From positions 1 to 57,719 of the IMG/VR virus record IMGVR_UViG_3300029309_000042: a stretch of DNA of 57,719 nt. One strand, 5' to 3'. A program made the translations under genes and the position numbers. Position 1 is the stretch's first letter. Every line of letters begins with the position of its first letter. Origin of the DNA: a virus. Lineage: Duplodnaviria; Caudoviricetes. The notes under the pieces were generated by a model. The model saw nothing but the letters and a program-made list of their open reading frames with translations. It did not search any database and was not told where the DNA came from. Shown here in pieces: positions 1-57,719 of this stretch.

Positions 1-468
1 TAGTGAACACCTTGCATCTGCATTACTTTTTCAATTCCGTTTTCTATATTAGAGATGTCAGTCTTTAATCTTTTATCAGAAAAAGCAGTCACATCATTAT
101 TAAAAATCGCCGCTCCTGCACTAGACATATCAAGTGTAAGAGCAGTTATGGAAGAACCACCATCGTTACCTTTAAAAATAATATCTTTATCACTAACTTG
201 AGCATTAAAAATAACATCTGAATTTTCAATACCTATATTCATCATTGTAGTGCCATCATCTTTTATTGCTATATCACCACCACCTACATCTAGCGTAAAG
301 TCACCTGCTACATCTAAAGTTAAAGTACCATTAGGAGTTGCAATAGTTCCATTATCACCATCACTTGTTAGTGTCATATCTGTTCCTGCACCTAATTTTA
401 TTTGAGCATTATCCACAAAAGTAGCATCGTGGTTAAACGCCGCCGTTCCAGCATCTGACATATCAAGT
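1..468. repeat. Imperfect terminal direct repeat, copy 1 (matches 57252-57719)
   Basis: Near-identical at 1-150 and 330-468, divergent between. Same 468-bp length and exact ends as the last 468 bp of the window. Confidence 0.95.
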
Positions 469-16291: not shown

Positions 16292-16463
16292 GTAACCCTC
16301 CTTTTATCACATAAAAGCGTTGTCTTATTAAGTGTGCCACATTTTCACGTATCTCGCTAGAAGTTAATGGTTCAAAATTTTCATCTTCTACAACCAAAGC
16401 ATCTGTCAACATTTCTACCTCATGGTATAATTGCTGAGGTGTCAACTCATCCGTAGTAGGCAT
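16284..16463 (-). CDS. Small hypothetical protein between terL and portal
   Basis: Likely start MPTTDEL; overlaps both neighbours. Confidence 0.45.
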   Translation of the reverse strand: MPTTDELTPQQLYHEVEMLTDALVVEDENFEPLTSSEIRENVAHLIRQRFYVIKGGLHG

Positions 16464-17919
16464 TATTTCTAGGTATATATTCTGGCTCATAAACTTCATC
16501 CTCTGGGTGTGTTATAAATCCACCTTCTCTAAATCTTCGTAAAGCTTGGGTTACTGTATCAACAAAGTCATCATGCTCTCCAGCAGGAAAACTCGCACAC
16601 TCTTCAATAACTTCTTCAGCCCAACGAGTATCTGGTGACCATACTAACCCACTTTCTAGTAAAGGTGCAACTGAATTAACACGACTGAATTTATCGTTAC
16701 CTCTACTTGGGCTATAATTTTGTATTGGAATGCCCATCTGCCGTAGTTCATGGGTCAATGGCATACCTGATGCTTTCGCCTCAATCAAGACACATTCTGG
16801 ATCCCAGTATTGATATTCCTCCAAAGCTATTTTGCGTAACTCGGGAAAGTCCCACCTACCACGTCTAGCATCACAAAGAATTATGTTGGGAGGTCCACCC
16901 TCCTCTGGGTAAAAAACACCCCAAGTAGTTATTGCTGAATAGTCCGCTGTTTCTTTTTTACTAAACGCAGTATCGTATGACTGCATAACATAACTCAAAG
17001 GTGGTATATCTTCTTTTTTCCAAACTTGCCACCACTCCCTTTTTAGTATGGCACTTGTTTCACTCGTCGGGTTTTGTTGCCATTGGGCTTCCCACTTACC
17101 AACTGACAATGAAGCCTTAACCTTTAACAGTTCTTCTACTTTCCAAAAGTTAGACCACATTGCCTTACCATCAGGTAAAATAGCTGGGAACTCAATTACT
17201 TCCCACTGGTCAGCTAACACATCTCTAGCTTGTTGCTTAATTAATTTACCAGTTAAATCTATCTCACTCCACCTTGTCATTACGATTACTATAGCTCCTC
17301 CTGGCTGAAGTCTCTGGCGAGGACCTGAGGTGTACCATTCATATGCGTTCTCCAAAGCGGATGGACTTAAAGCATCTTGTTCTGAGTGGGGGTCATCTAT
17401 TATCATCAAATCTGCACCACGACCAGTTATCGCTCCACCAACTCCAGCCGCGAAGTATTCGCCACCTTTGTCTGTTTCCCAACGTCCAGCCGCGAGGCTG
17501 TCTGACCGTAACTTTACATCTGGAAATACTTGGGCGTACTCGGCTCCTGCCATAAGGTTTCTTACTTTTCTACCAAACCTCACGGCTAGTTCACCAGTAT
17601 GAGTTGCTTGTATTATCTTTAACTTTGGGTTACGTCCCATCAACCAACTCGGCAATAAGTAACTTGCAAACTCTGACTTAGTATGTCTCGGGGGCATGTT
17701 TACAATAAGTCGTTTTATTTTGCCAGTAGCCAAGTCGTTAAATTTTTTCGCCATTATCTTATGGTGCTCACCTTCTATAAAATCTTCCCATATAGCACCA
17801 ACATATGTCATAAAATCTTTACGAGCACCCTCAGCAGTCACTAACTGCTTTTGCTTTTCCATAAGTTTTAAGTAATGTCGTAATTTTTCTTCAGGAATGT
17901 TTAAAGGGGCTTGTGTCAT
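16447..17919 (-). CDS. terL: Terminase large subunit
   Basis: NMPPRHTKS Walker A, IIDDPH Walker B, QSYDTA RNase H-like nuclease, HDDFVD. Confidence 0.95.
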   Translation of the reverse strand: MTQAPLNIPEEKLRHYLKLMEKQKQLVTAEGARKDFMTYVGAIWEDFIEGEHHKIMAKKFNDLATGKIKRLIVNMPPRHTKSEFASYLLPSWLMGRNPKLKIIQATHTGELAVRFGRKVRNLMAGAEYAQVFPDVKLRSDSLAAGRWETDKGGEYFAAGVGGAITGRGADLMIIDDPHSEQDALSPSALENAYEWYTSGPRQRLQPGGAIVIVMTRWSEIDLTGKLIKQQARDVLADQWEVIEFPAILPDGKAMWSNFWKVEELLKVKASLSVGKWEAQWQQNPTSETSAILKREWWQVWKKEDIPPLSYVMQSYDTAFSKKETADYSAITTWGVFYPEEGGPPNIILCDARRGRWDFPELRKIALEEYQYWDPECVLIEAKASGMPLTHELRQMGIPIQNYSPSRGNDKFSRVNSVAPLLESGLVWSPDTRWAEEVIEECASFPAGEHDDFVDTVTQALRRFREGGFITHPEDEVYEPEYIPRNNAYYG

Positions 17920-18097
17920 TTTTTTATAAAAATTTTTCCATGGACAATGAACCTGACTTCATATATACACAAAAGGGGGGTCATGTACAAATAATTTTCT
18001 GATATGCTGTGATTCGTGCGGAACCTGTATGCACTGACGCACATACATGTATATCTCCCGTCAGGGAGGGGACCGTTAACATGTTAACTAACTACCC

Positions 18098-18134
18098 AAA
18101 AAAATAGGGCTATGGTTGTAACGCCATAGCCCTA
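18098..18134 (-). terminator. Intrinsic terminator of the TC/GA-free gene
   Basis: 11-bp stem TAGGGCTATGG/CCATAGCCCTA followed by T7 on the minus strand. Confidence 0.85.
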
Positions 18135-18144
18135 GCAGTAGCCC

Positions 18145-18684
18145 CTATTTAAGGGCTACTAGCGTACCAAAGTTAGTACCGTAGGTATGCTTAGCTAAGT
18201 AGCTAAAGCTACCTATAAGCACTGCACCTAGTGCGTTTTGCCTACAACCGTTTTGGCTATTGGCATTTGCTAAAATACTGCTACCACTTAATTGGCTAAT
18301 AGCTTGTATTTGGCTAAGTGGTATTATTTTAGCTTGGCTAGGTACAACCATATTAACAAGCGTTGCGTGTACTTTAGGGCATGTAGTTTTACCCTTAAGC
18401 TTTGTAATAGCTTGTTGGTTAACACCATTTACACAAGCCCATAATATAGCCCCAGCTACGCTATTTTGTGCTTGTTGTGCTTTTAGCATTGGTTGCCACA
18501 AAGTGCCTTTAGCATTAACGCCACCAAACAAAGTGCCATTAGCAGTAAAGGCATTTTTGTTTAACTGTAAGCCCCATTTATGTACGCCACCGTTAGCGTT
18601 AATAAATGCAACCATATTGGCTACTAAAGTGTGTGCGTTTTTTTGTGTTACTGCACTTGTAACATTGTTAAAAGTATTTGGCAT
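18145..18684 (-). CDS. Hypothetical early protein with no Asp/Glu, encoded without TC/GA dinucleotides; paralog of 20320-20787
   Basis: Own sigma70-like promoter, AAGGGGG RBS and terminator; aligns by eye with the 20320-20787 product. Confidence 0.8.
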   Translation of the reverse strand: MPNTFNNVTSAVTQKNAHTLVANMVAFINANGGVHKWGLQLNKNAFTANGTLFGGVNAKGTLWQPMLKAQQAQNSVAGAILWACVNGVNQQAITKLKGKTTCPKVHATLVNMVVPSQAKIIPLSQIQAISQLSGSSILANANSQNGCRQNALGAVLIGSFSYLAKHTYGTNFGTLVALK

Positions 18685-18726
18685 GTTAGCCCCCTTTTAG
18701 TTAGTTAAGCCGTAGTTGGCAATTAT

Positions 18727-18755
18727 AGAATAGCAAATACAAAATAGGTTGTAAA
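18727..18755 (-). promoter_or_regulatory. Sigma70-like promoter of the 18145-18684 gene
   Basis: TTTACA-17 bp-TATTCT on the minus strand. Confidence 0.65.
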
Positions 18756-18950
18756 CACTTAATTTACTTTTTTTACACTTTTTTTATTTTGTGTTGCATT
18801 TTCGCAACAACTACCTTTTTTGATTTGTGATTGTGATTTACATATATGCCACGCTGTCATCATATGATTGAGCACGCGACAATGTGTAACAATCCATCAG
18901 GCAAATAATAATACAGCCATCAGGATTGCTACCACATATAACAATATCAT

Positions 18951-19106
18951 TTACTTAGCTCGTGATGCAAAGCAAATACCATAACAGTAGTGACTGCCAT
19001 ACCACATAGTATAAGTTGCCACTCAAAGGTAAATATGCACATAACTAAGAATGCTAGTGAAAGTAAAACACATACCCAAGCAAGAATAAAATTAAATGTT
19101 TCCATT
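18951..19106 (-). CDS. Small two-TM membrane protein (51 aa)
   Basis: Hand translation METFNFILAWVCVLLSLAFLVMCIFTFEWQLILCGMAVTTVMVFALHHELSK; AAGGAG RBS. Confidence 0.5.
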
Positions 19107-19845: not shown

Positions 19846-20271
19846 TCAATCCATCCATCCATCCTGTCCCGAGAACATTTGAGAAAATAAGAGTTGCCAT
19901 GCGTTTTGATCCATGTTGATCGGTCGCTTCGCATCGTACGAAACGTCACCATCCATCAACCTCGCTCCAAGGTTCTTTCCATCAATAATTAATACGCTCT
20001 GGGAGGAAGGATGATGAACCAAGTTATAAACCCGACCTCCATGCTGAGTTCTTAAGGTCTGCCATGCAATCTGCAAGGGTCTAAATGTTGGGTAGCTCTT
20101 GTCGTTTCTTGTTGTCAAAACCTTTAATTCAAACCAAGCTTCGTTCCCCTTATAACATCCACTCAGGTCAGGTATCCCAGTCGCCGTGTAGGATTCTAAC
20201 CTACTCCAATGACACATTCCCTCGGTCTGTTTTTTAATTATGTTCCAAAATTTTGTTTCAGGTTTAATCAT
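19846..20271 (-). CDS. PD-(D/E)XK nuclease, VRR-NUC/Holliday junction resolvase-like
   Basis: E...GIPDL...WFELK...LQIAWQ motif set. Confidence 0.75.
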   Translation of the reverse strand: MIKPETKFWNIIKKQTEGMCHWSRLESYTATGIPDLSGCYKGNEAWFELKVLTTRNDKSYPTFRPLQIAWQTLRTQHGGRVYNLVHHPSSQSVLIIDGKNLGARLMDGDVSYDAKRPINMDQNAWQLLFSQMFSGQDGWMD

Positions 20272-20319: not shown

Positions 20320-20787
20320 TTATTGTTTTGGGATAACGTATAACTCTACGAAGTTTTTACCCCATGAAGTAGACTTGGCTGACTGCCCACCGTTAAGAGC
20401 GTCAATTAAAGCGTGGAACGAACGTGCCTTAATTGATTTATGGTATTGGTCAACCATAGCTAAGGTAAGAGGATCTTTACCTTGTTGACAATTAATTAAT
20501 TGCCAGACAACTTTGGCACGGAGGGTAGATTTAGCCGTACCATTTTCCTCATATAAGGTTTTTTGTTTTTCCCACGGAAAAGGTAATTTGTCTTTTACGT
20601 TAACACCGTCAACAAGACGAACACCAACATTGTTGATATTACCCCCAGCATTTTGCTGAACAAAAGCAGTGATATCTGCAACGGTAACACCCTCACGGGA
20701 TTTGATACGCTCAGCTGATAAGCTAGTAATACCAGTGAATGTGATAGGCTTTTGAGGTGCCTTTACCTTTAAAGCTGATTTAGCCAT
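20320..20787 (-). CDS. Hypothetical early protein, normally coded paralog of 18145-18684
   Basis: Own promoter (TTTACA-17-TACTCT at 20832-20860), AAAGGAG RBS and terminator. Confidence 0.75.
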   Translation of the reverse strand: MAKSALKVKAPQKPITFTGITSLSAERIKSREGVTVADITAFVQQNAGGNINNVGVRLVDGVNVKDKLPFPWEKQKTLYEENGTAKSTLRAKVVWQLINCQQGKDPLTLAMVDQYHKSIKARSFHALIDALNGGQSAKSTSWGKNFVELYVIPKQ

Positions 20788-20867: not shown

Positions 20868-21392
20868 TTACTCATTACGATTACTTTTTTTATCTGCTGA
20901 ATGTTCTATTAATTGTGGGAACTCTTCCTGAATACGTTTGATTTCGTCCATGACTTCATCACGATTCATTTGGTCAATCCGTCCGTGTAATATTTCTTTT
21001 CTATCTATATATAATCCAGCCGCCTGACCTCTTGCTTTTTCAGCGGCGACAGCAGATGCGTAATTCTGGTTAGCCATCGCATCGTCTCGTATTTGTGATA
21101 GTTTACGAACATGACTTTCAAAAGTGACCTCATACTTCTGTTGTAGTTCAATCTTAAGTTGATGTATCCTATCCAAGATTTGTGGGAAGTCCCTGCCGTT
21201 CAGCATCTTACTAGCAATCGCATGAGCATTGGACTTTGCATATCCTGCTTCAATCGCCGCCTCAGTCTGTGTTACTTCCTGAGTTGCGTAGATTTTACAA
21301 AACTTTTCTTGTTTGGGTGTCAATCCAAAACTTACTTTAGGATTAGCGACCACTTCTAGTTTAGGTCGGTGTGTTACTTTAGCTCTAGCCAT
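20868..21392 (-). CDS. terS: Terminase small subunit
   Basis: LTPKQEKFC...TEAAIEAGY...AHAIASKML HTH; AAEKARGQAAGLY. Confidence 0.8.
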   Translation of the reverse strand: MARAKVTHRPKLEVVANPKVSFGLTPKQEKFCKIYATQEVTQTEAAIEAGYAKSNAHAIASKMLNGRDFPQILDRIHQLKIELQQKYEVTFESHVRKLSQIRDDAMANQNYASAVAAEKARGQAAGLYIDRKEILHGRIDQMNRDEVMDEIKRIQEEFPQLIEHSADKKSNRNE

Positions 21393-29065: not shown

Positions 29066-29370
29066 TTACCCTTTGTTCGCATGTGTGCTTCTACTAATAA
29101 TAAATAACGTCGCAAGTCTTTAATATCATCCATAAGCCCCTCAGGTCTTTTGTCCTCCTCTAAGGCTAGAAAAATATCATATGTATAATCATGAACTTGT
29201 TTTTCAATACGATCCCACTTACGAGCTAACATCATAAAAGCACCAATACCACCTCGTTTACGCCAACTATCGCCATAGTCTTCTTCGGCTCTGTCGAGTG
29301 AAGTCCAGTCCTCTGCACATATAATTTCTGTTTGTTTTATAATAGGGCTATATTCTTTTTGTTTTGTCAT
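29062..29370 (-). CDS. Nucleotide modification associated domain 1 (Nmad1/DUF1599-like) protein
   Basis: DYGDSWRKRGGIGAFMMLARKWDRI...DLRRYLLL. Confidence 0.7.
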   Translation of the reverse strand: MTKQKEYSPIIKQTEIICAEDWTSLDRAEEDYGDSWRKRGGIGAFMMLARKWDRIEKQVHDYTYDIFLALEEDKRPEGLMDDIKDLRRYLLLVEAHMRTKGK

Positions 29371-30362
29371 TTGAGTTTGTCCTTTCTACGATCAATCCAC
29401 TCTTTACATGCAATATGCCAGTCCTCCGACTTGATTTCTGACAAAGCATCCATACATTCTAAGTAGCTTTTAGTTTTCCATGATGTCCATAACTTCCACA
29501 TTGGTAAAGCTACCTCAGAAAATATCTTGTTTTTAAAATCTTTACGCATTTGACCAACCATAAATATTTTTAATTCTTCATCAAATGTTTTAGGGTAAGT
29601 CATCAAAGGCGTTTGATATTCTATTTGCCTAACTGCATACGAATCATAGTCAGGTTGCATATCTTTTAGTGGAGTAAGTGTGTCTAAATAAGCATGAAGG
29701 TTATGTGTAAACTGAGTATAAAAACCTATATTCACACCACACATACTCGCTATATATTCTTGTAAATAACTCATATGAACTGCATTAGCACCACAACAAC
29801 CCCATATCAAATCATTACTTCTGTTACACACAGTCATGTCTAAAAACCCATCACGAATACTAAAATAAACATGAGTATTACAAGGTAAATCTTTACTAGT
29901 GTTTAAGTGCGTTAAGTCTTGCTTTGCATCCCACATTGCCAACACTGCACGTCTATCATTTTTGTAAGAGGTTAAGCGTTCAATTATTATTTTAAGTTGG
30001 TCAAACTCAAAATGTTTTCTCCACCTATAACCATAAGCACCTTGCAGAGTTTTACCATCATCACTAAAGTCACTCATACGTTTGTTGTAATATTCTACTG
30101 TTTCTAAATCACGCATACCGTTCAGCATCCAGAGTGATTCCATGAAGTGAAATATTGGGTTAGCATCACGCTGTTCGTAGAACATAACTCTTTCTTGTGG
30201 GTGATTATAAGTAATCGCAACTGGTGTAGGAAACTCAAGAGCAGTACCCACTCTAGTTTCTATCTTTCTACCCACTTGCATGATTGATTGTTTAGCTAAG
30301 TGTAAAGCTTCTGAGACGTTGCCTACTACAAAAGTTTCTACACCATACATTCTTTTATACAT
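29367..30362 (-). CDS. Thymidylate synthase-family dUMP hydroxymethylase
   Basis: DLPCN catalytic Cys; RSNDLIWGCCGAN with the Asn that specifies dUMP; NLHAY; clustered with a 5-hmdU DNA kinase. Confidence 0.8.
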   Translation of the reverse strand: MYKRMYGVETFVVGNVSEALHLAKQSIMQVGRKIETRVGTALEFPTPVAITYNHPQERVMFYEQRDANPIFHFMESLWMLNGMRDLETVEYYNKRMSDFSDDGKTLQGAYGYRWRKHFEFDQLKIIIERLTSYKNDRRAVLAMWDAKQDLTHLNTSKDLPCNTHVYFSIRDGFLDMTVCNRSNDLIWGCCGANAVHMSYLQEYIASMCGVNIGFYTQFTHNLHAYLDTLTPLKDMQPDYDSYAVRQIEYQTPLMTYPKTFDEELKIFMVGQMRKDFKNKIFSEVALPMWKLWTSWKTKSYLECMDALSEIKSEDWHIACKEWIDRRKDKLK

Positions 30363-30439
30363 ATGTCCCCCTTTCTTTGGAGCTTTTTAAAGCCTCACGA
30401 GGCTTGGAATGTTATGTTTAGCACCTAACCTACCTAAAA

Positions 30440-31480
30440 CTAAATCAACTTATCAGAGGGCAAGTTAATAAAGTCATAAACTGGTTTGACTGCTTTAGTA
30501 TAACTATTACCACCACAAGCTTGTTCAATAAAGTTATTTGTCATCGCTGTGGGCTTCGGTAGCTCGTACTTACCCATTCTGTCAGGTAACAACCCATTAC
30601 GGATTGTAGTATTATCGCAACCATTACAAGCACCGAAGTTCCGTTGTCCGTGGTACAGTTTCACTCTAGCTGAGTAAAACGCATCATTGTTCCACAGTTC
30701 ATCCATGCCATTGTAGTCGTGTATATTACCACACTTATAGATGCCAGTCCAGTCATTGCAACATAGTGCTACATTACCGTCCCAACGAACACTTAGTTCA
30801 CGGAAAGGTTTTGCACATCGTTTGTCTTGTTGTTTGTAGTTTAATGGGAAAGCAGATCCAGCATGGTTGCTGACCTGAGCATGTGTACCACTCGTTGCTA
30901 TTGTTAAATCAGCACCGACTACAATTAATTTTTCTTTTGGTTTTCTTCTTTTATGAGGATTACCCTCTGGGTTTTGTGGATACTCTACAACTTTATGAGG
31001 TCCATTGTAATTAGCTTTTATTTTATCAACAATACGGATACGTTCATAATTATCTAAAAACAAAATGTTAAGTCCTGCATCCATAAGATCGTTAACTTTA
31101 TTACTTACATTACCGAGTAAACCACCCCCATTACTTGTCATCATAATAGAGGCTTTTGGAAAATACTGCCTAGTTGTTTGTATGAATACACAATACTCAG
31201 GGTGCATAGTCGGCTCACCGTGCATGGCAAACTCAAAGCGTGGATTCCAACTACTGTTTTTTATGTTCGTTAAAACCCTCAGTAGAGTATTACGTGTCAT
31301 AAATTTATACTCTTTAGAGTTTTTGCCATGCGTCCAACTTGGACCATCAGCACCATTATCTCTTATTTGTTGTATGCCACAAAAAGAACAAGCGAGGTTA
31401 CAACCCTCAGTTAATTCAATTTGTACTGCGTTCGGGGCATCCTGCTTTAAACGCTCGTTGCCATTGCACTCTAACGTCAT
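30440..31480 (-). CDS. Radical SAM enzyme with SPASM/twitch domain
   Basis: CNLACSFC (CX3CX2C); HGEP; C-terminal C...CCND...C...CNGC. Confidence 0.85.
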   Translation of the reverse strand: MTLECNGNERLKQDAPNAVQIELTEGCNLACSFCGIQQIRDNGADGPSWTHGKNSKEYKFMTRNTLLRVLTNIKNSSWNPRFEFAMHGEPTMHPEYCVFIQTTRQYFPKASIMMTSNGGGLLGNVSNKVNDLMDAGLNILFLDNYERIRIVDKIKANYNGPHKVVEYPQNPEGNPHKRRKPKEKLIVVGADLTIATSGTHAQVSNHAGSAFPLNYKQQDKRCAKPFRELSVRWDGNVALCCNDWTGIYKCGNIHDYNGMDELWNNDAFYSARVKLYHGQRNFGACNGCDNTTIRNGLLPDRMGKYELPKPTAMTNNFIEQACGGNSYTKAVKPVYDFINLPSDKLI

Positions 31481-32210
31481 ATCTTTTTTTCATTCCTTCC
31501 CAACCAGTTTTAGTTTCTTTTTCAACGACTTTAACAAACTCTGGAAACTTGGTGGCTAATTCATAACTAGCTTTTTCTTGTAACTCAGGTGTTCTGTAAT
31601 TACTACAACCTCCCTTTTGTCCGCTACCACCACGCTGATCCCATGTCCAGTCTACTATTACTGCATTTGGTTTACCTCTAGCAAATAAAGATAGAGTCAT
31701 GTAATAGTCTTCCATAAGTTCTACATCATTGTATCTAATATTTAATTTACCAATGTCAAGTGGTCGTAAACCATGCACTGCATTGATACGCATACCATGT
31801 TTGAGGGTATGGGGATAATGTTTATCATTCATTTGGCGAGGGCTAACACCGACATGCCAATACTCATTTAATAAATGTTCCATACGTTGAAACAAATACT
31901 GCATATCATCTTCAGTTGTTTTACGCAAACTTGGTCCGTGATTGCTAATACGTTTACCAAATATTAAATCATCATCTAACATAATAATTTTATCTTGTCC
32001 ATGTTCAATGGCATGATCCATTATAAATTCACGCACATTGTTTATGCCACTTACGTCGCCTCTTGACAACACATTTCTTCCATAATTTAAATGATACTTT
32101 ACTTCACTTTCAGGGCAAACTAAACAAGCCCTTTGTCTAGCCCACTCACCAATACTTCTCCAAGTTGTTTGTGTCGCAGTACGACCTCTTGTTGGTATAT
32201 ATATTTTCAT
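31416..32210 (-). CDS. GT-A fold glycosyltransferase, TET-associated (TAGT)/GREB1-like
   Basis: IYIPTRGR...REFI...MLDDD...MEDYYMTL...GGCS motifs. Confidence 0.75.
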   Translation of the reverse strand: MKIYIPTRGRTATQTTWRSIGEWARQRACLVCPESEVKYHLNYGRNVLSRGDVSGINNVREFIMDHAIEHGQDKIIMLDDDLIFGKRISNHGPSLRKTTEDDMQYLFQRMEHLLNEYWHVGVSPRQMNDKHYPHTLKHGMRINAVHGLRPLDIGKLNIRYNDVELMEDYYMTLSLFARGKPNAVIVDWTWDQRGGSGQKGGCSNYRTPELQEKASYELATKFPEFVKVVEKETKTGWEGMKKRYDVRVQWQRAFKAGCPERSTN

Positions 32211-32211
32211 T

Positions 32212-33114
32212 TTAGTCTCCGTTTACTGGTCCCTTTGGTATGCTTTGCATAACTTCTTTAAATTTACTTCTTGGTTTACCTTGACCAAGCCTTACTCTTT
32301 CGTATTTATCCCACTCACATAAACTATGTTCAATACAACGCATGTCTACATCATCATGATCGATTATATCCCAATCGACATACTTATGTTTTTCAGCTAA
32401 TATATTTTGCATGAACCTATTAGCTCGTTCTTGTGAGTGCATCTTTTTGAGGGGGTAACCATGTATCCTATTTATACCCCTCATTGCTCCTGGTCCTGCG
32501 TTCGCCCAACTAAAACGGTCTGTCGCCTTGTCCAGTACAGATGTGTAGTTGAGGTCGGAAACGACTTCGTAAGACATAAAGCCCCCTCCTCCCCACCCTT
32601 TATAGGCAGACAACGCATTGTGTACGGCTTGTAACGACTGAGTCTCGGACGCAAGTTTTCCAAGCGAGACTTGACTCTGGTAAATCGGTACAAGGAACTC
32701 ATATACAACAACCTCCGCTTTTGGTTTTTTAATACCTTGATTAGTTATTATATACGCTCCAGTGAATGTTTTTAAACCATGTTTAATTCTATTTGAAATT
32801 AAATTTACAGTATGCTCAGGATCCCACTCTAATGCGTCAGCATGTACCCAACCATGTACTTCAGCGAACTCCATAGTGCCTACCATTCTAAACAAGCAAC
32901 AGTTGAATATTATTTCACCAAAGGGGCGATTGTTGTGTGGGTCAGTCCATGCTTTTCGCATATAGACTGTGGTACGGTCGTTTTCCCTAAATGGGTTTGT
33001 AAATTTATATTCACGCAAAATAGGGTCTTCAGTCCATGGTGGACTGTCGCCCCTGACTCTAGCTAAATAAATGGCATGACGTTCATTTATCCAGTTGTAA
33101 AAATTTTCTATCAT
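32212..33114 (-). CDS. 5-hmdU DNA kinase (aGPT-Pplase clade 1)
   Basis: ERHAIY...PPWTEDPILREYKFTNPFRENDR...FMSYEVVSDL...GPGAMRG...IEHSLCEWDKY. Confidence 0.85.
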   Translation of the reverse strand: MIENFYNWINERHAIYLARVRGDSPPWTEDPILREYKFTNPFRENDRTTVYMRKAWTDPHNNRPFGEIIFNCCLFRMVGTMEFAEVHGWVHADALEWDPEHTVNLISNRIKHGLKTFTGAYIITNQGIKKPKAEVVVYEFLVPIYQSQVSLGKLASETQSLQAVHNALSAYKGWGGGGFMSYEVVSDLNYTSVLDKATDRFSWANAGPGAMRGINRIHGYPLKKMHSQERANRFMQNILAEKHKYVDWDIIDHDDVDMRCIEHSLCEWDKYERVRLGQGKPRSKFKEVMQSIPKGPVNGD

Positions 33115-53353: not shown

Positions 53354-53947
53354 TCATAAATTATTTTTTTGAAAGTTATAAGCTAAACTTATCCTTACAG
53401 CATCGTCTACTTGTTTTTCAACACTATGTTCAAGATAACTTCTAAAAACTAATAACAATCCAGGTCTAGGTTCATAATAGACTCTTTGATAATTGTCAGG
53501 GTTATATTCATCATACTCTGGAGATATCATATCTACTAAAGGGCTTTTAAAATAAATTTTAGCAGATGTTGTATTAGTCTTTAAAAAATAAACAGCACTA
53601 ATCAAACTACCCCCATGATGATGATATTCTTGATAATCTCCTTTTTTATATACGTTAAACCAAGCGTCATAACAATGTGTGTTTAAACATGACTGTTTAA
53701 TTCTACACTCGTTTAAATATTCTTTAATACTTTCTAAAACAAAATCATTAATGGGTTTAAATTTATTATCAGTCCAAATATTATAAGTACCTATTGTGTT
53801 ATAAGTTGTTTTAGCCAACCAGTTTTCTCCACCTTTTTTTGTTGCATTTTCTAATTCGTAACATCTATTAACAACCTTTTTTTCAATCAAATCATGGTGT
53901 GGGTTATCATAAAAACCTATAAGCGTTGGAAAAAATCTATCTATCAT
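53354..53947 (-). CDS. 2OG-Fe(II) oxygenase-like protein
   Basis: WFN...YQEYHHH...ISAVYF...FRSYLEHSV...RISLAYN. Confidence 0.8.
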   Translation of the reverse strand: MIDRFFPTLIGFYDNPHHDLIEKKVVNRCYELENATKKGGENWLAKTTYNTIGTYNIWTDNKFKPINDFVLESIKEYLNECRIKQSCLNTHCYDAWFNVYKKGDYQEYHHHGGSLISAVYFLKTNTTSAKIYFKSPLVDMISPEYDEYNPDNYQRVYYEPRPGLLLVFRSYLEHSVEKQVDDAVRISLAYNFQKNNL

Positions 53948-54286
53948 TTATAATAATTCATCTTGTGATACTCCGTTTTTTACAAATAATTTATTTTCTA
54001 TTTCTTCTTTGTAAACAACACAATCTGACAAAACACAATAAAGGCTTGAGTTTGTTAAATTATAGAACTGAGTATCTTTTTCTATGTTAAAAGAACCTTC
54101 TTTAAGTCCATGTGGCTTTTTAATAATTAAATAAATTTTACCCCCAGATAAGGTTATATCTTGGTTTTTGTCCAGTTTTATAAAAGTATTTTTATCATAA
54201 AACATTTCAAGCCCTTCATAATTAGAGGGTTTATATGGTCTACTAACTATAAATTTATATTTTTCAAAAATTAATTCTTTTGACAA
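53948..54286 (-). CDS. Hypothetical protein
   Basis: ORF between oxygenase genes. Confidence 0.5.
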   Translation of the reverse strand: MSKELIFEKYKFIVSRPYKPSNYEGLEMFYDKNTFIKLDKNQDITLSGGKIYLIIKKPHGLKEGSFNIEKDTQFYNLTNSSLYCVLSDCVVYKEEIENKLFVKNGVSQDELL

Positions 54287-54891
54287 AAACTTGGCAAACC
54301 CAAAAAAGGTCTTCTATCAAATATGTTTTCATCTGCAAAATCCCCCTTTTTATCATTGTAATGTAGAAAAACCTGACAACAGTTATTTCCTTCAAATTGT
54401 TCTCTCCAATGTTCTAAATCACAACCTCGATAAACTAACATATCGCCACTTTTTAAATTAACTTTAATGCCATCGTTACCCTCTCCTTTTGTCGGGTCAA
54501 GAAAAATATCCCATTCATCGCCACCTAAATTCAAAGTACAAGATATTTCACAACTTGGTCTATCTTTGTGTCTTGGTAAAATATCGCCATATCTATATAA
54601 TCTAACGTAGCTGTATGTTGGAACTAAATCTAAATTAGTTTCTTTCAACATGACTGGTAACACTCTTTCTAATAATGTTTCCATAGCAATATCACCATAA
54701 CAACAATAAGTGTTGGGTATTTGACTTTGGTTGTATTCTCCAAATGTAGTGTCATGTTGTGAAATTAAATTATTTTGAAATAAGTATTGTGTAGTTCTGT
54801 CTTTGTTTAAAATATAACTATAACAAAAACTAGCTAATTCTTTCGATATTGCACTTCTAACAACTTTGTATTTATTTTTAGCAAAACTCAT
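54271..54891 (-). CDS. 2OG-Fe(II) oxygenase-like protein
   Basis: PTYSY.RLY..GD.L.RHKDRPSCEIS...HWRE...QVFLHY. Confidence 0.8.
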   Translation of the reverse strand: MSFAKNKYKVVRSAISKELASFCYSYILNKDRTTQYLFQNNLISQHDTTFGEYNQSQIPNTYCCYGDIAMETLLERVLPVMLKETNLDLVPTYSYVRLYRYGDILPRHKDRPSCEISCTLNLGGDEWDIFLDPTKGEGNDGIKVNLKSGDMLVYRGCDLEHWREQFEGNNCCQVFLHYNDKKGDFADENIFDRRPFLGLPSFCQKN

Positions 54892-55487
54892 GTATGTGGA
54901 CTCCCTAAATGCCAACTGACTAGACTATATCTTGTACCTTTTGTAACTGGAGTTACCCTATGCCACACAAAAGATGGAAAAACGACAACAGACCCTTTTT
55001 GTTTCAAAGTTTTTATGTTATTTATAGTATTCTTTTTAGGCGATAAATTATTTACTTCAAAGTCTCCCCCCTCGTATTCTGTTCCATCAACTAAAGCTAT
55101 AGACATAGATAGTTTTCTAACTAATCCAAATTCATTTGGTATTGTTGCAGAATCAGTATGCCAATCATAATGTTGCTTTTCATCACCAGAATATTTTGTA
55201 AATTGACAAGACTCACTTGAAGTCCATTGAAAATTCCATCCAGCATTTGCATTAGCTGTGTTCAACCAATAATGTATCTCACGATATATCCAAGGATGAT
55301 TTAGCCAAACAACTTGAGAGTTTCTTTTCTTTTTTAATTCTTCTACATCTTTATCACTTGATAAATTATCAACATTAGACACTGTTGCAAGTTTTTCTTT
55401 TTGAGATTTACCATGTGCTAAAATATAATCACATATTCTATGAGGAACAGCGTTTTCAAATACCCAGAAATAATTATTTAATTGCAT
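54888..55487 (-). CDS. 2OG-Fe(II) oxygenase (prolyl 4-hydroxylase/PKHD-like)
   Basis: HYDWHTD...RKLS...YEGG...FPSFVWHRVTPVTKGTRYSLVSW. Confidence 0.85.
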   Translation of the reverse strand: MQLNNYFWVFENAVPHRICDYILAHGKSQKEKLATVSNVDNLSSDKDVEELKKKRNSQVVWLNHPWIYREIHYWLNTANANAGWNFQWTSSESCQFTKYSGDEKQHYDWHTDSATIPNEFGLVRKLSMSIALVDGTEYEGGDFEVNNLSPKKNTINNIKTLKQKGSVVVFPSFVWHRVTPVTKGTRYSLVSWHLGSPHT

Positions 55488-55512
55488 TTTGTTATCTTAA
55501 TTAATTTTATTT

Positions 55513-56025
55513 TTAAGTGCTTACCCATTGTGAATTATCTGGATTCCATATATGAACTGTATAGGGTTCTTCTCTTTCATAACCAAGCCACCTTAAATTA
55601 TCCTCATCCCAATCAAGTTCATAATTAAATTCAACACCTTCACTATTTGTATATTTTTTATTGCTAGGTATGGCTACTGGTGGATCCCATAAACAAGTTG
55701 TTTCATTTAAAGTCCAAGATTCGTAATTTTTTGGGTCTATAAAAGCATCTCTAATAGGATCATATGTCCCACCGATTGTAGCATAGTTTTTTCTAAAGGC
55801 TTTTTCTTGAGTATCTGATAATGTTTGTCTATCAATATAGTGTTTACCACCACGAGTATTATATGATGTGCGTTTGTAAGTATTTGTTACACCATGAACA
55901 TTTTGTAAAAAAGCTTGTCCTATTGCATCGCTTTCATTACCATTTGAATCTTGACAATCTTTATCAGCAACGACTTCTACATTTAAAACTACATTGTTAT
56001 TATCTAATTTAGCAAAATGTGCCAT
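55513..56025 (-). CDS. Conserved tail-associated hypothetical protein
   Basis: MAHFAKLD...TSYNT...FRKNYA..G.TYD..RDAFI.P...SWTLNETTC.W. Confidence 0.65.
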   Translation of the reverse strand: MAHFAKLDNNNVVLNVEVVADKDCQDSNGNESDAIGQAFLQNVHGVTNTYKRTSYNTRGGKHYIDRQTLSDTQEKAFRKNYATIGGTYDPIRDAFIDPKNYESWTLNETTCLWDPPVAIPSNKKYTNSEGVEFNYELDWDEDNLRWLGYEREEPYTVHIWNPDNSQWVST

Positions 56026-56032
56026 ATACAAC

Positions 56033-57049
56033 CTATTGAAACTTATACCTTATAATAACTATACCAGAGCCACCACTACCAGAACTTAGACCATCTGGCG
56101 TACTTGCCGCTCCACCTCCTCCACCTCCAGTGTTACCACTACCATTGCTTCTGTTAGCACCTCCACCACCAGAGCCTCCAGAACCTCCACGAGGTGCTGA
56201 ATCATTACCACCTCCACCACCTCCAGCTCTTGTTGTAGATGAACCATTTATAGAAGTAGCTGTTCCATTTCCACCATTTCCACCTGATGATCCGCTTGGA
56301 CTTGAAGCATTGCTTCCAGCGGCTCCAGCTCCTCCACCGCCTCCACCAGCATCTCTTGTTGATGGAGTGCTTGGTGGTGATGAAGGTGGTCTAGCATTAC
56401 CACCACTATTTCCTTGTCCTGAAGTACCAGAGCCACCAGAAGTGCCTTCTCGACCTCCACCGCCTCCACCCGATCCTCCAGGTCCGCCAGTATTTCTATC
56501 ACCTGCTCCGCCACCACCTCCACCGAAGCCTCCACCAGTAGAAGTTATGGAATCAAAAACAGAGTTACCACCACTACCACCATTACCAGCACTAGTTTGA
56601 TTACTGCCTCCACCCCCAACAGTTATTGGGTAAGCTTGTGCTGAAACTGGGTGACCTCCAGTTGCAGGATTAGGAAAGGATACTCGGTGACCACCAGCAC
56701 CTCCGCCACCACCACCTTGACCTCCGCCACCACCAGCACCTCCGCCAACGACTAAAAAATCAACAGTGTTACTTCCAGCAGAATTACCACCATTCGAAAC
56801 TGTAAAAGTTCCTGAACTTGTAAAGGTATGTATTTTAAAATCTCCAGATGTGGTAATACTCCCACCACTTGCAGATACAAACTGTGCGTTACTTTTACCT
56901 TGCAAATCAGACATTGCAATAGCACCAGAGGGTTGTCCTGCTAATGTTCTAACAGCAGTTGCTCCCATATTTATTTGAGTTGATGAAGGAGATATACTTA
57001 ATTCTGTATTGACTTGAGAAAGTGATATGGCTCCAGTAGGTAACGTCAT
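56033..57049 (-). CDS. Glycine-rich tail fibre-associated protein
   Basis: IHTFTSSGTF, LVVGGGAGGG, GGSGIVIIRY glycine-rich domain. Confidence 0.7.
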   Translation of the reverse strand: MTLPTGAISLSQVNTELSISPSSTQINMGATAVRTLAGQPSGAIAMSDLQGKSNAQFVSASGGSITTSGDFKIHTFTSSGTFTVSNGGNSAGSNTVDFLVVGGGAGGGGGQGGGGGGAGGHRVSFPNPATGGHPVSAQAYPITVGGGGSNQTSAGNGGSGGNSVFDSITSTGGGFGGGGGGAGDRNTGGPGGSGGGGGGREGTSGGSGTSGQGNSGGNARPPSSPPSTPSTRDAGGGGGGAGAAGSNASSPSGSSGGNGGNGTATSINGSSTTRAGGGGGGNDSAPRGGSGGSGGGGANRSNGSGNTGGGGGGAASTPDGLSSGSGGSGIVIIRYKFQ

Positions 57050-57052
57050 AAT

Positions 57053-57719
57053 TTACCCCTTTTTTAATTCATCAATTTCTGCTTTTAAATCTTTAATAGC
57101 TTCAATCAACACTGCCGTAAGTTTACCATAATCTACTGATTTAGTTTGCATTTCATCATCGGCGGTTAACACGACCTCTGGAACAATAGCTTCCATATCT
57201 TGTGCCAACACACCTATTTGTGGTTTTGCATCTTCAACATCATTTCTTTTATAGTGAACACCTTGCATCTGCATTACTTTTTCAATTCCGTTTTCTATAT
57301 TAGAGATGTCAGTCTTTAATCTTTTATCTGAAAAAGCAGTCACATCATTATTAAAAGTCGCCGCTCCTGCACTAGACATATCAAGTGTAAGAGCAGTTAT
57401 TGTTGAGCCACCATCATTACCATTAACAACAAAGTCTTTATCTGAAACTGATACGTTGATATGAAAACTAGATGAATTATTTGCAATATTACCTATTTGT
57501 GTACCAGCATCTTTAAAACGAATAACACCATCATCAGAATCAAGTATTATTTCTCCTGCTGAATCAACAGAAAAGTCGCCATTAGGAGTTGCAATAGTTC
57601 CATTTGTACCATCACTTGTTAGTGTCATATCTGTTCCTGCACCTAATTTTATTTGAGCATTATCCAGAAAAGTAGCATCGTGGTTAAACGCCGCCGTTCC
57701 AGCATCTGACATATCAAGT
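57053..57719 (-). CDS. Tail fibre C-terminus with peptidase S74 intramolecular chaperone (second allele; continues from window start)
   Basis: SDKRLK...GVLAQD...VPEVV...VDYGKLTAVLIEAIK. Confidence 0.85.
   Translation of the reverse strand, partial: LDMSDAGTAAFNHDATFLDNAQIKLGAGTDMTLTSDGTNGTIATPNGDFSVDSAGEIILDSDDGVIRFKDAGTQIGNIANNSSSFHINVSVSDKDFVVNGNDGGSTITALTLDMSSAGAATFNNDVTAFSDKRLKTDISNIENGIEKVMQMQGVHYKRNDVEDAKPQIGVLAQDMEAIVPEVVLTADDEMQTKSVDYGKLTAVLIEAIKDLKAEIDELKKG
57252..57719. repeat. Imperfect terminal direct repeat, copy 2 (matches 1-468)
   Basis: See copy 1. Confidence 0.95.

What the first reader, a model, noticed from the sequence alone, without database searches (positions are those of the whole stretch)
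18073..18727. A whole transcription unit written without TC/GA dinucleotides, encoding a protein with no acidic residues
Seen: read base by base, 18073-18727 (655 bp) contains no TC and no GA, so there is no 5'-TC-3' on either strand. Three ordinary 60-bp lines I counted elsewhere had 5-10 such sites each, so dozens are expected here. The blank zone matches one transcript: it begins at the predicted -10 box (the single GA at 18728-18729 is inside TATTCT, upstream of the likely start site) and covers the leader, ORF and terminator. The 179-aa protein has no Asp or Glu (GAN codons), Ser only as AGY, and one Arg. The stop is TAG, and the RBS is AAGGGGG rather than the GGAG used by most neighbours. 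Avoidance in non-coding parts, across codon junctions and on both strands means selection acts on the DNA, not the protein. Inference: this gene must stay free of a TC-directed mark or lesion.
Basis: partly seen in the sequence, partly recalled or inferred. Interest (0 to 1): 0.95.

Follow-up and report, generated by a model that had tools for sequence, protein, structure and literature searches.

The report
Phage gene lacking TC/GA dinucleotides
A marine phage that carries genes for chemically decorating its own thymines keeps one small gene, a recoded twin of a normal neighbouring gene, completely free of the two-letter word TC on both DNA strands, most likely so that this gene alone escapes the decoration.

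Summary
Window 18073-18727 has no TC or GA, against 1 site per 10 bp elsewhere; the next longest gap is 74 bp. The other nine dinucleotide pairs show no such gap.

The island holds a promoter-like site, a 179-aa ORF and a terminator. The ORF is a real gene: dN/dS is 0.07-0.23. Synonymous reshuffling of its own protein expects about 31 sites, and 0 of 5000 shuffles gave none.

The trait is conserved. Of 69 distinct genes of this type from marine viral contigs, 47 have zero TC and zero GA, down to about 27% protein identity.

New here:
- Every informative genome (22 of 22) also has a normal-composition paralog, with 11-22 Asp+Glu. In the window it is 20320-20787.
- 13 of 69 lineages regained sense-strand TC, but none regained GA.
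- All these phages encode a thymidylate-synthase homolog and a 5-hmdU DNA kinase.

Best reading (about 45%): TC is the thymine hypermodification site, and this cassette stays unmodified so that host RNA polymerase can transcribe it. The protein's function and fold are unknown. No modification or expression data exist.

The parts
18073..18727 (.). TC/GA-free island (655 bp)
   Evidence: the flanking sites are at 18071 and 18728; this is the only significant dinucleotide-free run in the window.
18145..18684 (-). 'F' gene: 179-aa basic protein (pI 10.3) with no Asp or Glu; TAG stop included
   Evidence: dN/dS is 0.07-0.23. The AlphaFold model has pLDDT 82 and pTM 0.83. No Pfam, PHROG, NCBIfam or PADLOC family matches.
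18690..18696 (-). RBS-like AAGGGGG, which avoids the GA of GGAG
   Evidence: Read. Four of 18 related loci instead carry a GA 9 nt before the ATG.
18727..18755 (-). Sigma-70-like promoter match: TTTACA, 17 nt, TATTCT (TG before the -10)
   Evidence: a consensus match only. The one TC of the region lies in the -10 hexamer.
18098..18134 (-). Intrinsic-terminator-like hairpin (11 pairs) plus T-run
   Evidence: In 18 loci the first downstream TC/GA lies 68-91 nt after the stop.
20320..20787 (-). 'N' gene: normal-composition paralog of F (155 aa, 12 Asp+Glu, 28 TC, 12 GA, pI 9.8)
   Evidence: Custom HMM hit. BLASTP F against N gives E 3e-4. hhalign of the F family against the N family gives 92.5% probability and E 4.9e-7. 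Model pLDDT is 84.
20868..21392 (-). Terminase small subunit, upstream of N
   Evidence: Pfam PF03592, E 2.6e-11.
16447..17919 (-). Terminase large subunit, directly downstream of the F terminator
   Evidence: blastn matches annotated TerL genes of HTVC023P-type phages.
32212..33114 (-). 5-hmdU DNA kinase (5-HMUDK), the candidate writer that selects the thymines to be hypermodified
   Evidence: Pfam PF18723, E 3.5e-49.
29367..30362 (-). Thymidylate-synthase homolog (candidate dUMP hydroxymethylase)
   Evidence: Pfam PF00303, E 9.2e-21.
30440..31480 (-). Radical-SAM/SPASM enzyme in the modification cluster
   Evidence: Pfam PF04055 and PF13186; NCBIfam weak hits only.
31416..32210 (-). TET-associated-glycosyltransferase-like protein in the modification cluster
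   Evidence: Pfam PF20691, E 6.2e-18.

Best explanation
F (18145-18684) is a recoded paralog of the neighbouring normal gene N. Its whole expression cassette is kept free of 5'-TC-3' on both strands.

Shown:
- The avoidance is real.
- It acts at the nucleic-acid level.
- It has been maintained by selection across a deep protein family.
- It occurs only in a clade of HTVC023P-like marine phages that all carry a thymidylate-synthase homolog and a 5-hmdU DNA kinase.

Inferred: in these phages T in the context TC is the thymine that the kinase marks for hypermodification. A cassette with no TC on either strand therefore stays free of bulky adducts.

Inferred purpose: host RNA polymerase can then transcribe F at full efficiency from hypermodified DNA, either the incoming virion genome or late, fully modified DNA. 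N and all other genes carry a modifiable T about every 15 nt of template and are transcribed best from freshly replicated DNA.

The price is a protein that cannot use Asp or Glu (GAN), TCN Ser, or the codons GGA, AGA and CGA. The family tolerates this because it is intrinsically basic.

The biochemical role of N and F is unknown. My guess is a small nucleic-acid-binding protein of the packaging module.
For: 1. Reverse-complement symmetry (TC and GA both absent) is the signature of a duplex-DNA dinucleotide. No other pair is affected in 23 whole genomes.
2. The avoidance goes beyond what the protein sequence requires. It persists while synonymous sites diverge to dS 0.3-1.5.
3. Of 69 distinct F-type genes, 47 have 0 TC and 0 GA. 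The 74 N-type genes have 13-38 TC and 12-30 GA.
4. Of 18 near-complete genomes chosen only for carrying the kinase, 15 have a TC/GA island and G008 has a one-strand island. G017 lacks the whole packaging region. G011 has none.
5. 13 of 69 F genes regained 6-30 sense-strand TC but kept GA at 2 or fewer. None did the reverse. Hence TC on the template strand is the harder constraint, as expected if a modified template T hinders RNA polymerase.
6. The two subgroups have different downstream enzymes: rSAM plus a TAGT-like glycosyltransferase, or a GT-B glycosyltransferase. They share the kinase and the TC/GA rule.
7. Literature, as passages read: hypermodification is sequence-specific (PMC8989533). 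Resistant restriction sites in M6, ViI and phiW-14 implicate T in TG or TC (PMC6449724). Phosphorylation of hmU templates by 5-HMUDK cut E. coli RNA polymerase transcription to 37% of natural DNA and 10% of hmU DNA (PMC6457204).
8. The -35 match is TTTACA rather than TTGACA and the RBS is AAGGGGG rather than GGAG. Both avoid GA.
Against: - No data show which thymines are modified in this phage. In M6, ViI and phiW-14 TG is implicated as well as TC, yet CA/TG is not avoided in the island (13.0 against 13.5 per 100).
- M6 and PhiJL001 carry the kinase but have no dinucleotide-free island in their first 50 kb.
- G011 is 100% complete by CheckV and its kinase is 62% identical. It has two normal paralogs and no island, and no gene is uniquely missing from it.
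- All other genes, early ones included, carry template-strand TC. Modification therefore cannot be an absolute block to transcription.
- 3 F genes (G019, G020, G022) carry 2-3 GA, all accounted for by Asp/Glu codons. 4 of 18 loci have a GA in the Shine-Dalgarno region.
- There is no expression evidence.
- The function of N and F is unknown, so the reason this particular protein needs such treatment is a guess.
Confidence: 0.45

Rival explanations
1. Escape from a DNA-cutting or DNA-editing enzyme aimed at TC. Candidates are a host modification-dependent (type IV-like) nuclease or glycosylase that attacks hypermodified T, a TC-specific nickase, or a TC-preferring cytosine deaminase. The site-free cassette would survive intact and still be expressed. 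F might be the countermeasure, in the way T5 first-step-transfer DNA lacks EcoRI sites (recalled).
For: It explains the same duplex symmetry, the self-contained promoter-to-terminator unit and the link with the hypermodification clade. The exception G011, with GC 48% against 36-46% in the others, could simply infect a host that lacks the enzyme.
Against: A double-strand cutter or a strand-blind editor predicts no strand asymmetry. Yet 13 of 69 F genes tolerate 6-30 TC on the sense strand while keeping GA at 2 or fewer. Protecting 0.65 kb does not save the other 57 kb. N and F match no PADLOC, Pfam or PHROG family. No candidate enzyme is known.
Confidence: 0.2
2. Selection at the RNA level. The mRNA must lack GA (always) and UC (usually) because a phage or host endoribonuclease cuts at these dinucleotides. 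F would be a cleavage-proof message, like ACA-less mRNAs that resist MazF (recalled).
For: The minimal island coincides with the transcript, running from about -12 to 68-91 nt past the stop. The sense-strand asymmetry fits. A lone GA is tolerated in the Shine-Dalgarno region of 4 of 18 loci, where a ribosome could shield it. A resistant twin of a normal gene fits a backup-message logic.
Against: It needs two unrelated RNA dinucleotides that happen to be exact reverse complements, which is 1 chance in 15 a priori. In many loci the island runs 100 to more than 300 nt upstream of the ATG, past the promoter-like site. No RNase candidate appeared among the 51 window proteins scanned against Pfam. 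The paired terminator stem is also site-free.
Confidence: 0.2
3. The island is a DNA site that must stay unmodified to be recognised, for example the packaging initiation (pac) region next to the terminase genes. The ORF merely has to live within that rule.
For: The island lies directly upstream of terL and 2.2 kb downstream of terS, inside the packaging module, in all genomes examined.
Against: Synonymous sites are close to saturation (dS up to 1.5), so no long conserved DNA sequence is kept. The edges follow the gene and its terminator. The strand asymmetry is not expected for a protein-binding duplex site.
Confidence: 0.05
4. The pattern is chance, an assembly artefact, low complexity, or a by-product of protein composition or codon bias.
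For: None found. Only the absence of Asp and Glu could in principle be a protein trait.
Against: log10 P is about -25. No island of any pair appears in 1.42 Mb of related phage DNA. The feature recurs in independent assemblies. 0 of 5000 synonymous shuffles reach zero sites. Codon junctions and non-coding flanks are also clean.
Confidence: 0.01

Closest known systems
Thymidine hypermodification systems of phages M6, ViI, phiW-14, SP10 and PaMx11 (PMC5889632, PMC8989533, PMC6449724; passages read)
   Same: The window has a thymidylate-synthase homolog and a 5-hmdU DNA kinase next to DNA polymerase A. The kinase is 32-35% identical to those of M6-like phages. A sequence-context-specific T modification, with TC or TG proposed as the context, is published for these systems.
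   Different: No dinucleotide-free gene exists in M6 or PhiJL001 (first 50 kb each). The downstream enzymes here are a TAGT-like glycosyltransferase plus an rSAM/SPASM enzyme, or a GT-B glycosyltransferase in subgroup B. No amino-acid:DNA transferase was found among the proteins scanned. The modified base is unknown.
Restriction-site avoidance, and site-free early regions such as T5 first-step-transfer DNA without EcoRI sites (recalled, not checked here)
   Same: A nucleic-acid motif is purged by selection from a piece of phage DNA that must keep working while the rest is at risk.
   Different: Here the motif is a dinucleotide, not a 4-8 bp site, so the protein itself loses Asp, Glu and several codons. 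The likely 'enzyme' is the phage's own modification pathway. The gene is a recoded duplicate of a normal gene. The constraint is partly strand-specific.
Cleavage-site-free mRNAs that resist sequence-specific mRNA interferases such as MazF/ACA (recalled)
   Same: A whole message lacks a short motif while other messages carry it.
   Different: Both the motif and its reverse complement are missing, and flanks upstream of the promoter are often clean as well. No cognate RNase is known.
Major-groove DNA modification as an on/off switch for bacterial RNA polymerase in vitro (PMC6457204, passages; PMC11550810, abstract only; base J and T4 Alc recalled)
   Same: hmU templates are transcribed better than T templates. 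Kinase-phosphorylated or bulky hmU derivatives are transcribed poorly. For T7 RNA polymerase, template-strand and non-template-strand effects differ.
   Different: Those are test-tube demonstrations on artificial templates. Here a natural genome seems to have evolved around such an effect. This has not been shown.
TC depletion of animal-virus genomes attributed to APOBEC3 editing (recalled)
   Same: The same dinucleotide is involved, on both strands.
   Different: That is a genome-wide statistical depletion. This is an absolute, gene-sized absence in a phage, with the rest of the genome at normal TC/GA density.
SPO1 TF1 and T4 internal proteins: small basic proteins of phages with modified DNA (recalled)
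   Same: N and F are small, basic (pI 9.8 and 10.3) and restricted to a clade with modified DNA.
   Different: There is no sequence or fold similarity. DNA binding has not been tested.

Membership tests
Thymidine hypermodification pathway (5-hmdU route) | Thymidylate-synthase homolog that could make 5-hmdUMP | tested here: met
   PF00303, E 9.2e-21, at 29367-30362. Hydroxymethylase versus methylase activity cannot be told from sequence here.
Thymidine hypermodification pathway (5-hmdU route) | 5-hmdU DNA kinase (5-HMUDK) | tested here: met
   PF18723, E 3.5e-49, covering 274 of 281 profile positions, at 32212-33114. Present in all 23 genomes compared.
Thymidine hypermodification pathway (5-hmdU route) | Transferase that replaces the (pyro)phosphate (AADT/aGPT-Pplase type) | tested here: not met
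   No such Pfam hit among the 51 window proteins scanned. A TAGT-like glycosyltransferase and an rSAM/SPASM enzyme sit in its place.
Thymidine hypermodification pathway (5-hmdU route) | Hypermodified thymine present in virion DNA, in a defined context | not testable with these tools
   Only assembled sequence and Logan contigs are available.
Target-site avoidance (restriction-avoidance type) | Motif far rarer than composition predicts | tested here: met
   0 sites against about 65 expected in 655 bp. 0 of 5000 synonymous shuffles reach zero.
Target-site avoidance (restriction-avoidance type) | A cognate enzyme with that specificity is known | tested here: inconclusive
   The kinase is present. 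TC or TG preference is published only for other phages and only by inference from restriction data.
Interferase-resistant (site-free) mRNA | Motif absent from the sense strand only, within transcript limits | tested here: not met
   In the window and in 47 of 69 F genes both the motif and its complement are absent. Islands often pass the promoter-like site.
Interferase-resistant (site-free) mRNA | Cognate RNase in phage or host | not tested
   The host is unknown. No RNase family appears among the Pfam hits.
N/F protein family (defined here, not in any library) | Match to the family profile with the shared N-terminal A-F-(I/V)-x-x-x-x-G-G and C-terminal L-N-G-G ... W/Y-G ... L-V motifs | tested here: met
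   Custom HMM gives E 1.6e-74 for F and 1.5e-10 for N. hhalign gives 92.5% probability.
Any curated protein family or solved fold | Significant hit in Pfam, PHROGs, NCBIfam, PADLOC, PDB sequences, PDB or BFVD folds, or the ESM Atlas | tested here: not met
   (one 15-bit NCBIfam hit against a cut-off of 657 is noise).

The most novel reading that the evidence does not exclude
DNA hypermodification in these abundant marine phages doubles as a transcription switch. Thymines in TC are decorated and the decorated template is poorly read by host RNA polymerase. The phage therefore keeps one modification-proof 'pioneer' cassette, F, a TC/GA-free recoding of gene N. F would be the only gene fully expressible from the incoming or late, fully modified genome. 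If so, the island reads out the sequence specificity of the 5-hmdU DNA kinase directly from genome sequence. N and F would then define a new fold of small basic proteins that handle hypermodified DNA.
Probability: 0.3. Interest if true: 0.95.

Novelty: categorically new. Interest (0 to 1): 0.9.

Why it matters
The rules that decide which thymines a phage hypermodifies, and what the modification does to gene expression, are open questions. PMC5889632 states that the exact motifs are not known.

Here evolution seems to have written the answer into sequence. An entire expression cassette avoids one dinucleotide, and does so across a family that has diverged to about 27% identity. A normal-composition twin in the same genome serves as a built-in control.

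This gives three things:
- a sequence-only predictor of the modification motif;
- a natural test case for the cost of DNA modification to transcription;
- a striking example of a DNA-level rule stripping a protein of all acidic residues.

The phages belong to the HTVC023P-like group, reported as very abundant in the ocean (PMC9599517). The N/F family has at least 303 clusters at 90% identity in metagenomes, all unnamed.

Tried and rejected
Function searches that gave nothing:
- F and N against Pfam, PHROGs, NCBIfam and PADLOC.
- The N profile against PDB sequences.
- Foldseek of the F model against PDB and BFVD, and of the N model against PDB (best E about 0.5-1).
- The ESM Atlas.
- tblastn of F against 50,697 GenBank phage records (no match).
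- The N-profile search found 303 proteins, all 'hypothetical' or unnamed.

Generality:
- M6 and PhiJL001 (first 50 kb each) have no island and no N/F homolog.
- HTVC027P, HTVC023P and 023Pt_psg01 (first 50 kb each) have none either.
- The last 7-14 kb of these five records were not scanned.

Expression: the one run search found DNA holders in several studies, plus one metatranscriptome and three runs guessed to be RNA, each with about 6% of the words. All are Logan contigs of 88-95%-like relatives. They cannot show level, strand or ends. I draw nothing from them.

Cause of the G011 exception: a tblastn presence/absence matrix over 23 genomes found no gene that is present in all island-bearing genomes and missing in G011.

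History of the duplication: a maximum-likelihood tree of 44 N and F proteins groups N with F within each subgroup (support 91/67). It carries long-branch and composition warnings, so I do not decide between one duplication and two.

Ideas rejected:
- A codon, tRNA or anticodon-nuclease explanation. Out-of-frame junctions and UTRs are also clean.
- Avoidance of UV photoproducts. TT, CT and CC are at normal density.
- 7-deazaguanine at GA (recalled from phage CAjan) or a methyltransferase. No DpdA/Que or methylase Pfam hit appeared among the 51 proteins scanned.
- The Pam3 gp34-like neighbour as part of the pathway. It occurs in 504 phage records, including the kinase-less 023Pt_psg01.
- Genome termini at F. 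The end overlaps of G000 and G006 are imperfect assembly overlaps.

Supplementary files of the papers were not opened. The supplementary tables of PMC6449724 list the enzyme-by-enzyme results that bear on the TC/TG claim.
Full report
A scan of the window finds the last GA at 18071-18072 and the next at 18728-18729. So 18073-18727 is free of TC and GA. Elsewhere these sites occur once per 10.0 bp (5789 in 57,719 bp). The next longest gaps are 74 bp, directly adjacent, and 67 bp. A geometric model corrected for the number of gaps gives log10 P of about -25. None of the other nine reverse-complement dinucleotide pairs gives a comparable gap. Inside the island every other dinucleotide is near its genome frequency. 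The island contains a sigma-70-like match (TTTACA, 17 nt, TATTCT at 18755-18727), a GA-free RBS-like AAGGGGG, the ORF 18145-18684 on the minus strand, and an 11-pair hairpin with a T-run at 18134-18105.

THE ORF IS A REAL GENE, AND THE RULE ACTS ON THE NUCLEIC ACID. The 179-aa protein has no Asp or Glu, one Arg, and Ser only as AGY. Keeping its amino-acid sequence and drawing synonymous codons at genome usage gives 20.9 +/- 3.4 TC and 10.4 +/- 2.8 GA. None of 5000 draws reached zero. None of the 31 codons that precede a C-starting codon ends in T, and none of the 70 that precede an A-starting codon ends in G. The 115 non-coding bases of the island have no site where 11.5 are expected. Against 11 orthologs dN/dS is 0.07-0.23, with third-position changes dominant and dS between 0.27 and 1.5. 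So the protein is under purifying selection while synonymous sites turn over, yet TC and GA are never fixed. AlphaFold2 on a 41-sequence alignment gives a confident globular model (pLDDT 82, pTM 0.83).

THE TRAIT IS CONSERVED.
- A protein search found 40 relatives at 38-96% identity. The representative library holds 14 clusters.
- Of 14 IMG/VR loci with close relatives, 13 have a TC/GA-free run of 621-781 bp over the gene and its flanks. One locus has three TC.
- Loci of 44-49%-identical relatives show the same: 817 bp free in one, and 2 sites against 54 expected in another.
- In 18 loci the first downstream site lies 68-91 nt after the stop, just past the terminator. Upstream the clean zone ends anywhere from 9 nt to more than 200 nt before the ATG. 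Four of the 18 loci have a GA in the Shine-Dalgarno position (a wider table is).

WHAT KIND OF GENOME THIS IS. The window is a whole IMG/VR virus record. Its ends overlap imperfectly, by 468 nt at 85% identity. The terminase gene is 65-66% identical at the DNA level to HTVC023P-type pelagiphages. Nearly all genes lie on the minus strand. F sits between terS (20868-21392) and terL (16447-17919). Pfam finds a thymidine-hypermodification cluster beside DNA polymerase A: a thymidylate-synthase homolog, a radical-SAM/SPASM enzyme, a TET-associated-glycosyltransferase-like protein and a 5-hmdU DNA kinase. It also finds MazG and HD-domain nucleotide hydrolases.

WHOLE-GENOME COMPARISON.
- I collected 80 IMG/VR loci around kinase homologs. 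In these 1.42 Mb there is no island of any dinucleotide pair.
- Records of 50 kb or more were taken next. Twenty were searched with the F alignment, and 18 of them (G006-G023) were fetched whole.
- Together with G000-G004 this made 23 genomes for scanning.
- Among the 18 chosen only for the kinase, 15 have a TC/GA-free island (167-991 bp). G008 has a one-strand island. G011 and G017 have none.
- No other dinucleotide pair gives an island in any of the genomes.

A NORMAL PARALOG IN EVERY GENOME. The islands in genomes where the first profile found nothing still encode related proteins. A profile built from all island proteins then showed that 22 of 23 genomes carry two paralogs. G017 lacks the whole terS-terL-portal region, so it is uninformative.
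- The first paralog, which I call N, has normal composition. In the window it is 20320-20787, with 155 aa, 12 Asp+Glu, 28 TC and 12 GA.
- The second is the TC/GA-free F.
- hhalign of the F alignment against the N alignment gives 92.5% probability and E 4.9e-7. BLASTP of the window pair gives E 3e-4.
- Both proteins are basic, with pI 10.3 for F and 9.8 for N.

Pooling all fetched DNA gives 143 distinct full-length genes.
- 74 are N-type, with TC 13-38, GA 12-30 and Asp+Glu 11-22.
- 69 are F-type, with Asp+Glu of 3 or fewer. Of these, 47 have no TC and no GA, and 9 have a few sites.
- The remaining 13 have 6-30 sense-strand TC but at most 2 GA. No F gene shows the reverse pattern.

So GA in the message, which is TC on the template strand, is the harder constraint. 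G011 is the one genome where both paralogs are normal. It has the kinase, and no gene is uniquely missing from it.

CONTROLS. HTVC027P, HTVC023P, 023Pt_psg01, M6 and PhiJL001 (first 50 kb each) have neither an N/F homolog (E up to 10) nor a TC/GA island. No Pelagibacter phage is among the 86 GenBank records that match the kinase. So N/F and the island are confined, as far as sampled, to the kinase-bearing branch of the HTVC023P-like phages. They are not a general feature of thymidine-hypermodifying phages.

WHAT THE LITERATURE ADDS. I read passages only and opened no supplements.
- Restriction-resistant sites in M6, ViI and phiW-14 share TG or TC, and the authors attribute this to the kinase (PMC6449724).
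- HTVC023P-type clades V, VIII and IX carry the thymidylate-synthase/pyrophosphorylase pair (PMC9599517).
- In vitro, hmU templates raise E. coli RNA polymerase output to about 350%. Treatment with 5-HMUDK lowers it to 37% of natural DNA, and bulky caged hmU abolishes it (PMC6457204).
- With T7 RNA polymerase, template-strand and non-template-strand modifications act differently (PMC11550810, abstract only).
- Four searches for a prior description of a motif-free gene in a modified phage, or of the kinase's specificity, found none.

MOST LIKELY MECHANISM (about 45%). TC is the context in which the kinase marks hmU. A cassette without TC on either strand cannot be hypermodified. It therefore stays an efficient template for host RNA polymerase when the rest of the genome is decorated, either at entry or late in infection. 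This accounts for:
- the duplex symmetry;
- the transcription-unit extent of the island;
- the stricter rule for the template strand;
- the GA-avoiding promoter and RBS variants;
- the shared rule across subgroups that have different downstream enzymes but the same kinase;
- the existence of a normal twin expressed from the terS operon.

Weak points are listed in the Against line. The main ones are that no modification map exists, that TG is not avoided, that G011 is an exception, and that the function of N and F is unknown.

RIVALS.
- Escape from a TC-directed or modification-directed DNA enzyme (20%). It is weakened by the strand asymmetry.
- An RNase-proof message (20%). It is weakened by the reverse-complement symmetry and by clean DNA upstream of the promoter.
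- An unmodified recognition site such as pac (5%). It is weakened by the saturated synonymous sites.
- Chance, artefact or protein composition. This is excluded.

COMPARISON AND NOVELTY. The phage is a member of the thymidine-hypermodifying kind as far as the two defining enzymes go, though its transferase step differs. The island works like target-site avoidance, but it is not a member of any described case. The target is a dinucleotide and probably the phage's own mark. The avoidance is absolute and gene-sized, it removes all acidic residues from a folded protein, and it comes with a normal paralog. The N/F family matches no library family and no solved or predicted viral fold. I found no description of such a thing in the searches named above.

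VERDICT. Interest is high.

Noticed in passing
window 20320-20787 (-): The normal paralog N has exactly as many GA as Asp+Glu codons (12). That means no 'optional' GA, where 23.0 are expected (z = -4.1, the lowest of all genes in the window). Its sense-strand TC is enriched (z = +3.3). In subgroup-B genomes N has normal GA counts.
   Followed up: partly
window 29367-33114 (-): The modification cluster combines a 5-hmdU DNA kinase with a TET-associated-glycosyltransferase-like protein and a radical-SAM/SPASM enzyme. This differs from the published M6, ViI and PaMx11 enzyme sets and suggests an undescribed thymine modification, possibly glycosylated. Subgroup-B relatives have a GT-B glycosyltransferase instead (L166:1594-2868).
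   Followed up: partly
G011 (loci L136-L138; paralogs at L137:14314-14733 and L137:15726-16148): One complete relative with the kinase has two normal-composition paralogs (12-13 Asp+Glu each) and no island. Its GC content is 48%, against 36-46% in the other 22 genomes. Its acidic residues sit at the same alignment positions as in N.
   Followed up: partly
L234:8470-8658 (+), and the same ORF in G007: In the G006/G007-like lineage the TC/GA-free island is about 1 kb. It also contains a conserved 62-aa, apparently two-helix membrane ORF without Asp or Glu, upstream of F. L018 has a 20-codon hydrophobic ORF in the same place.
   Followed up: no
window 18947-19105 (-): A 52-aa hydrophobic ORF just upstream of the island has the lowest TC/GA density of the ordinary ORFs (5.7 per 100). 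The 74-bp stretch 18728-18802 is the second longest TC/GA-free gap of the genome.
   Followed up: no
window 19846-20271 (-): The gene between N and F matches PHROG 2165, annotated 'DNA helicase', and more weakly an endonuclease PHROG. It has a strong excess of GA over its synonymous expectation (43 against 27.6, z = +6.0).
   Followed up: no
window 1-468 and 57252-57719: The two ends of the record overlap over 468 nt at 85% identity. This looks like a circular or permuted genome closed across strain variation. G006's ends overlap by 370 nt at 96.5%, inside its F gene.
   Followed up: partly
window 53354-57049 (-): A block with two 2OG-Fe(II) oxygenase genes and a glycine-rich-domain protein has no counterpart in the other 22 genomes compared, apart from one weak match in G011.
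   Followed up: no
L001:7550-7895 (phage 023Pt_psg01): The hypothetical gene upstream of terL in this kinase-less relative has a 345-bp run without GC (P about 1e-3 after correction). It is not a homolog of N or F.
   Followed up: no
window, whole: Strand composition is strongly skewed (T 35%, A 28%, C 21%, G 16% on the plus strand), with almost all genes on the minus strand. CG is depleted (observed/expected 0.56).
   Followed up: no
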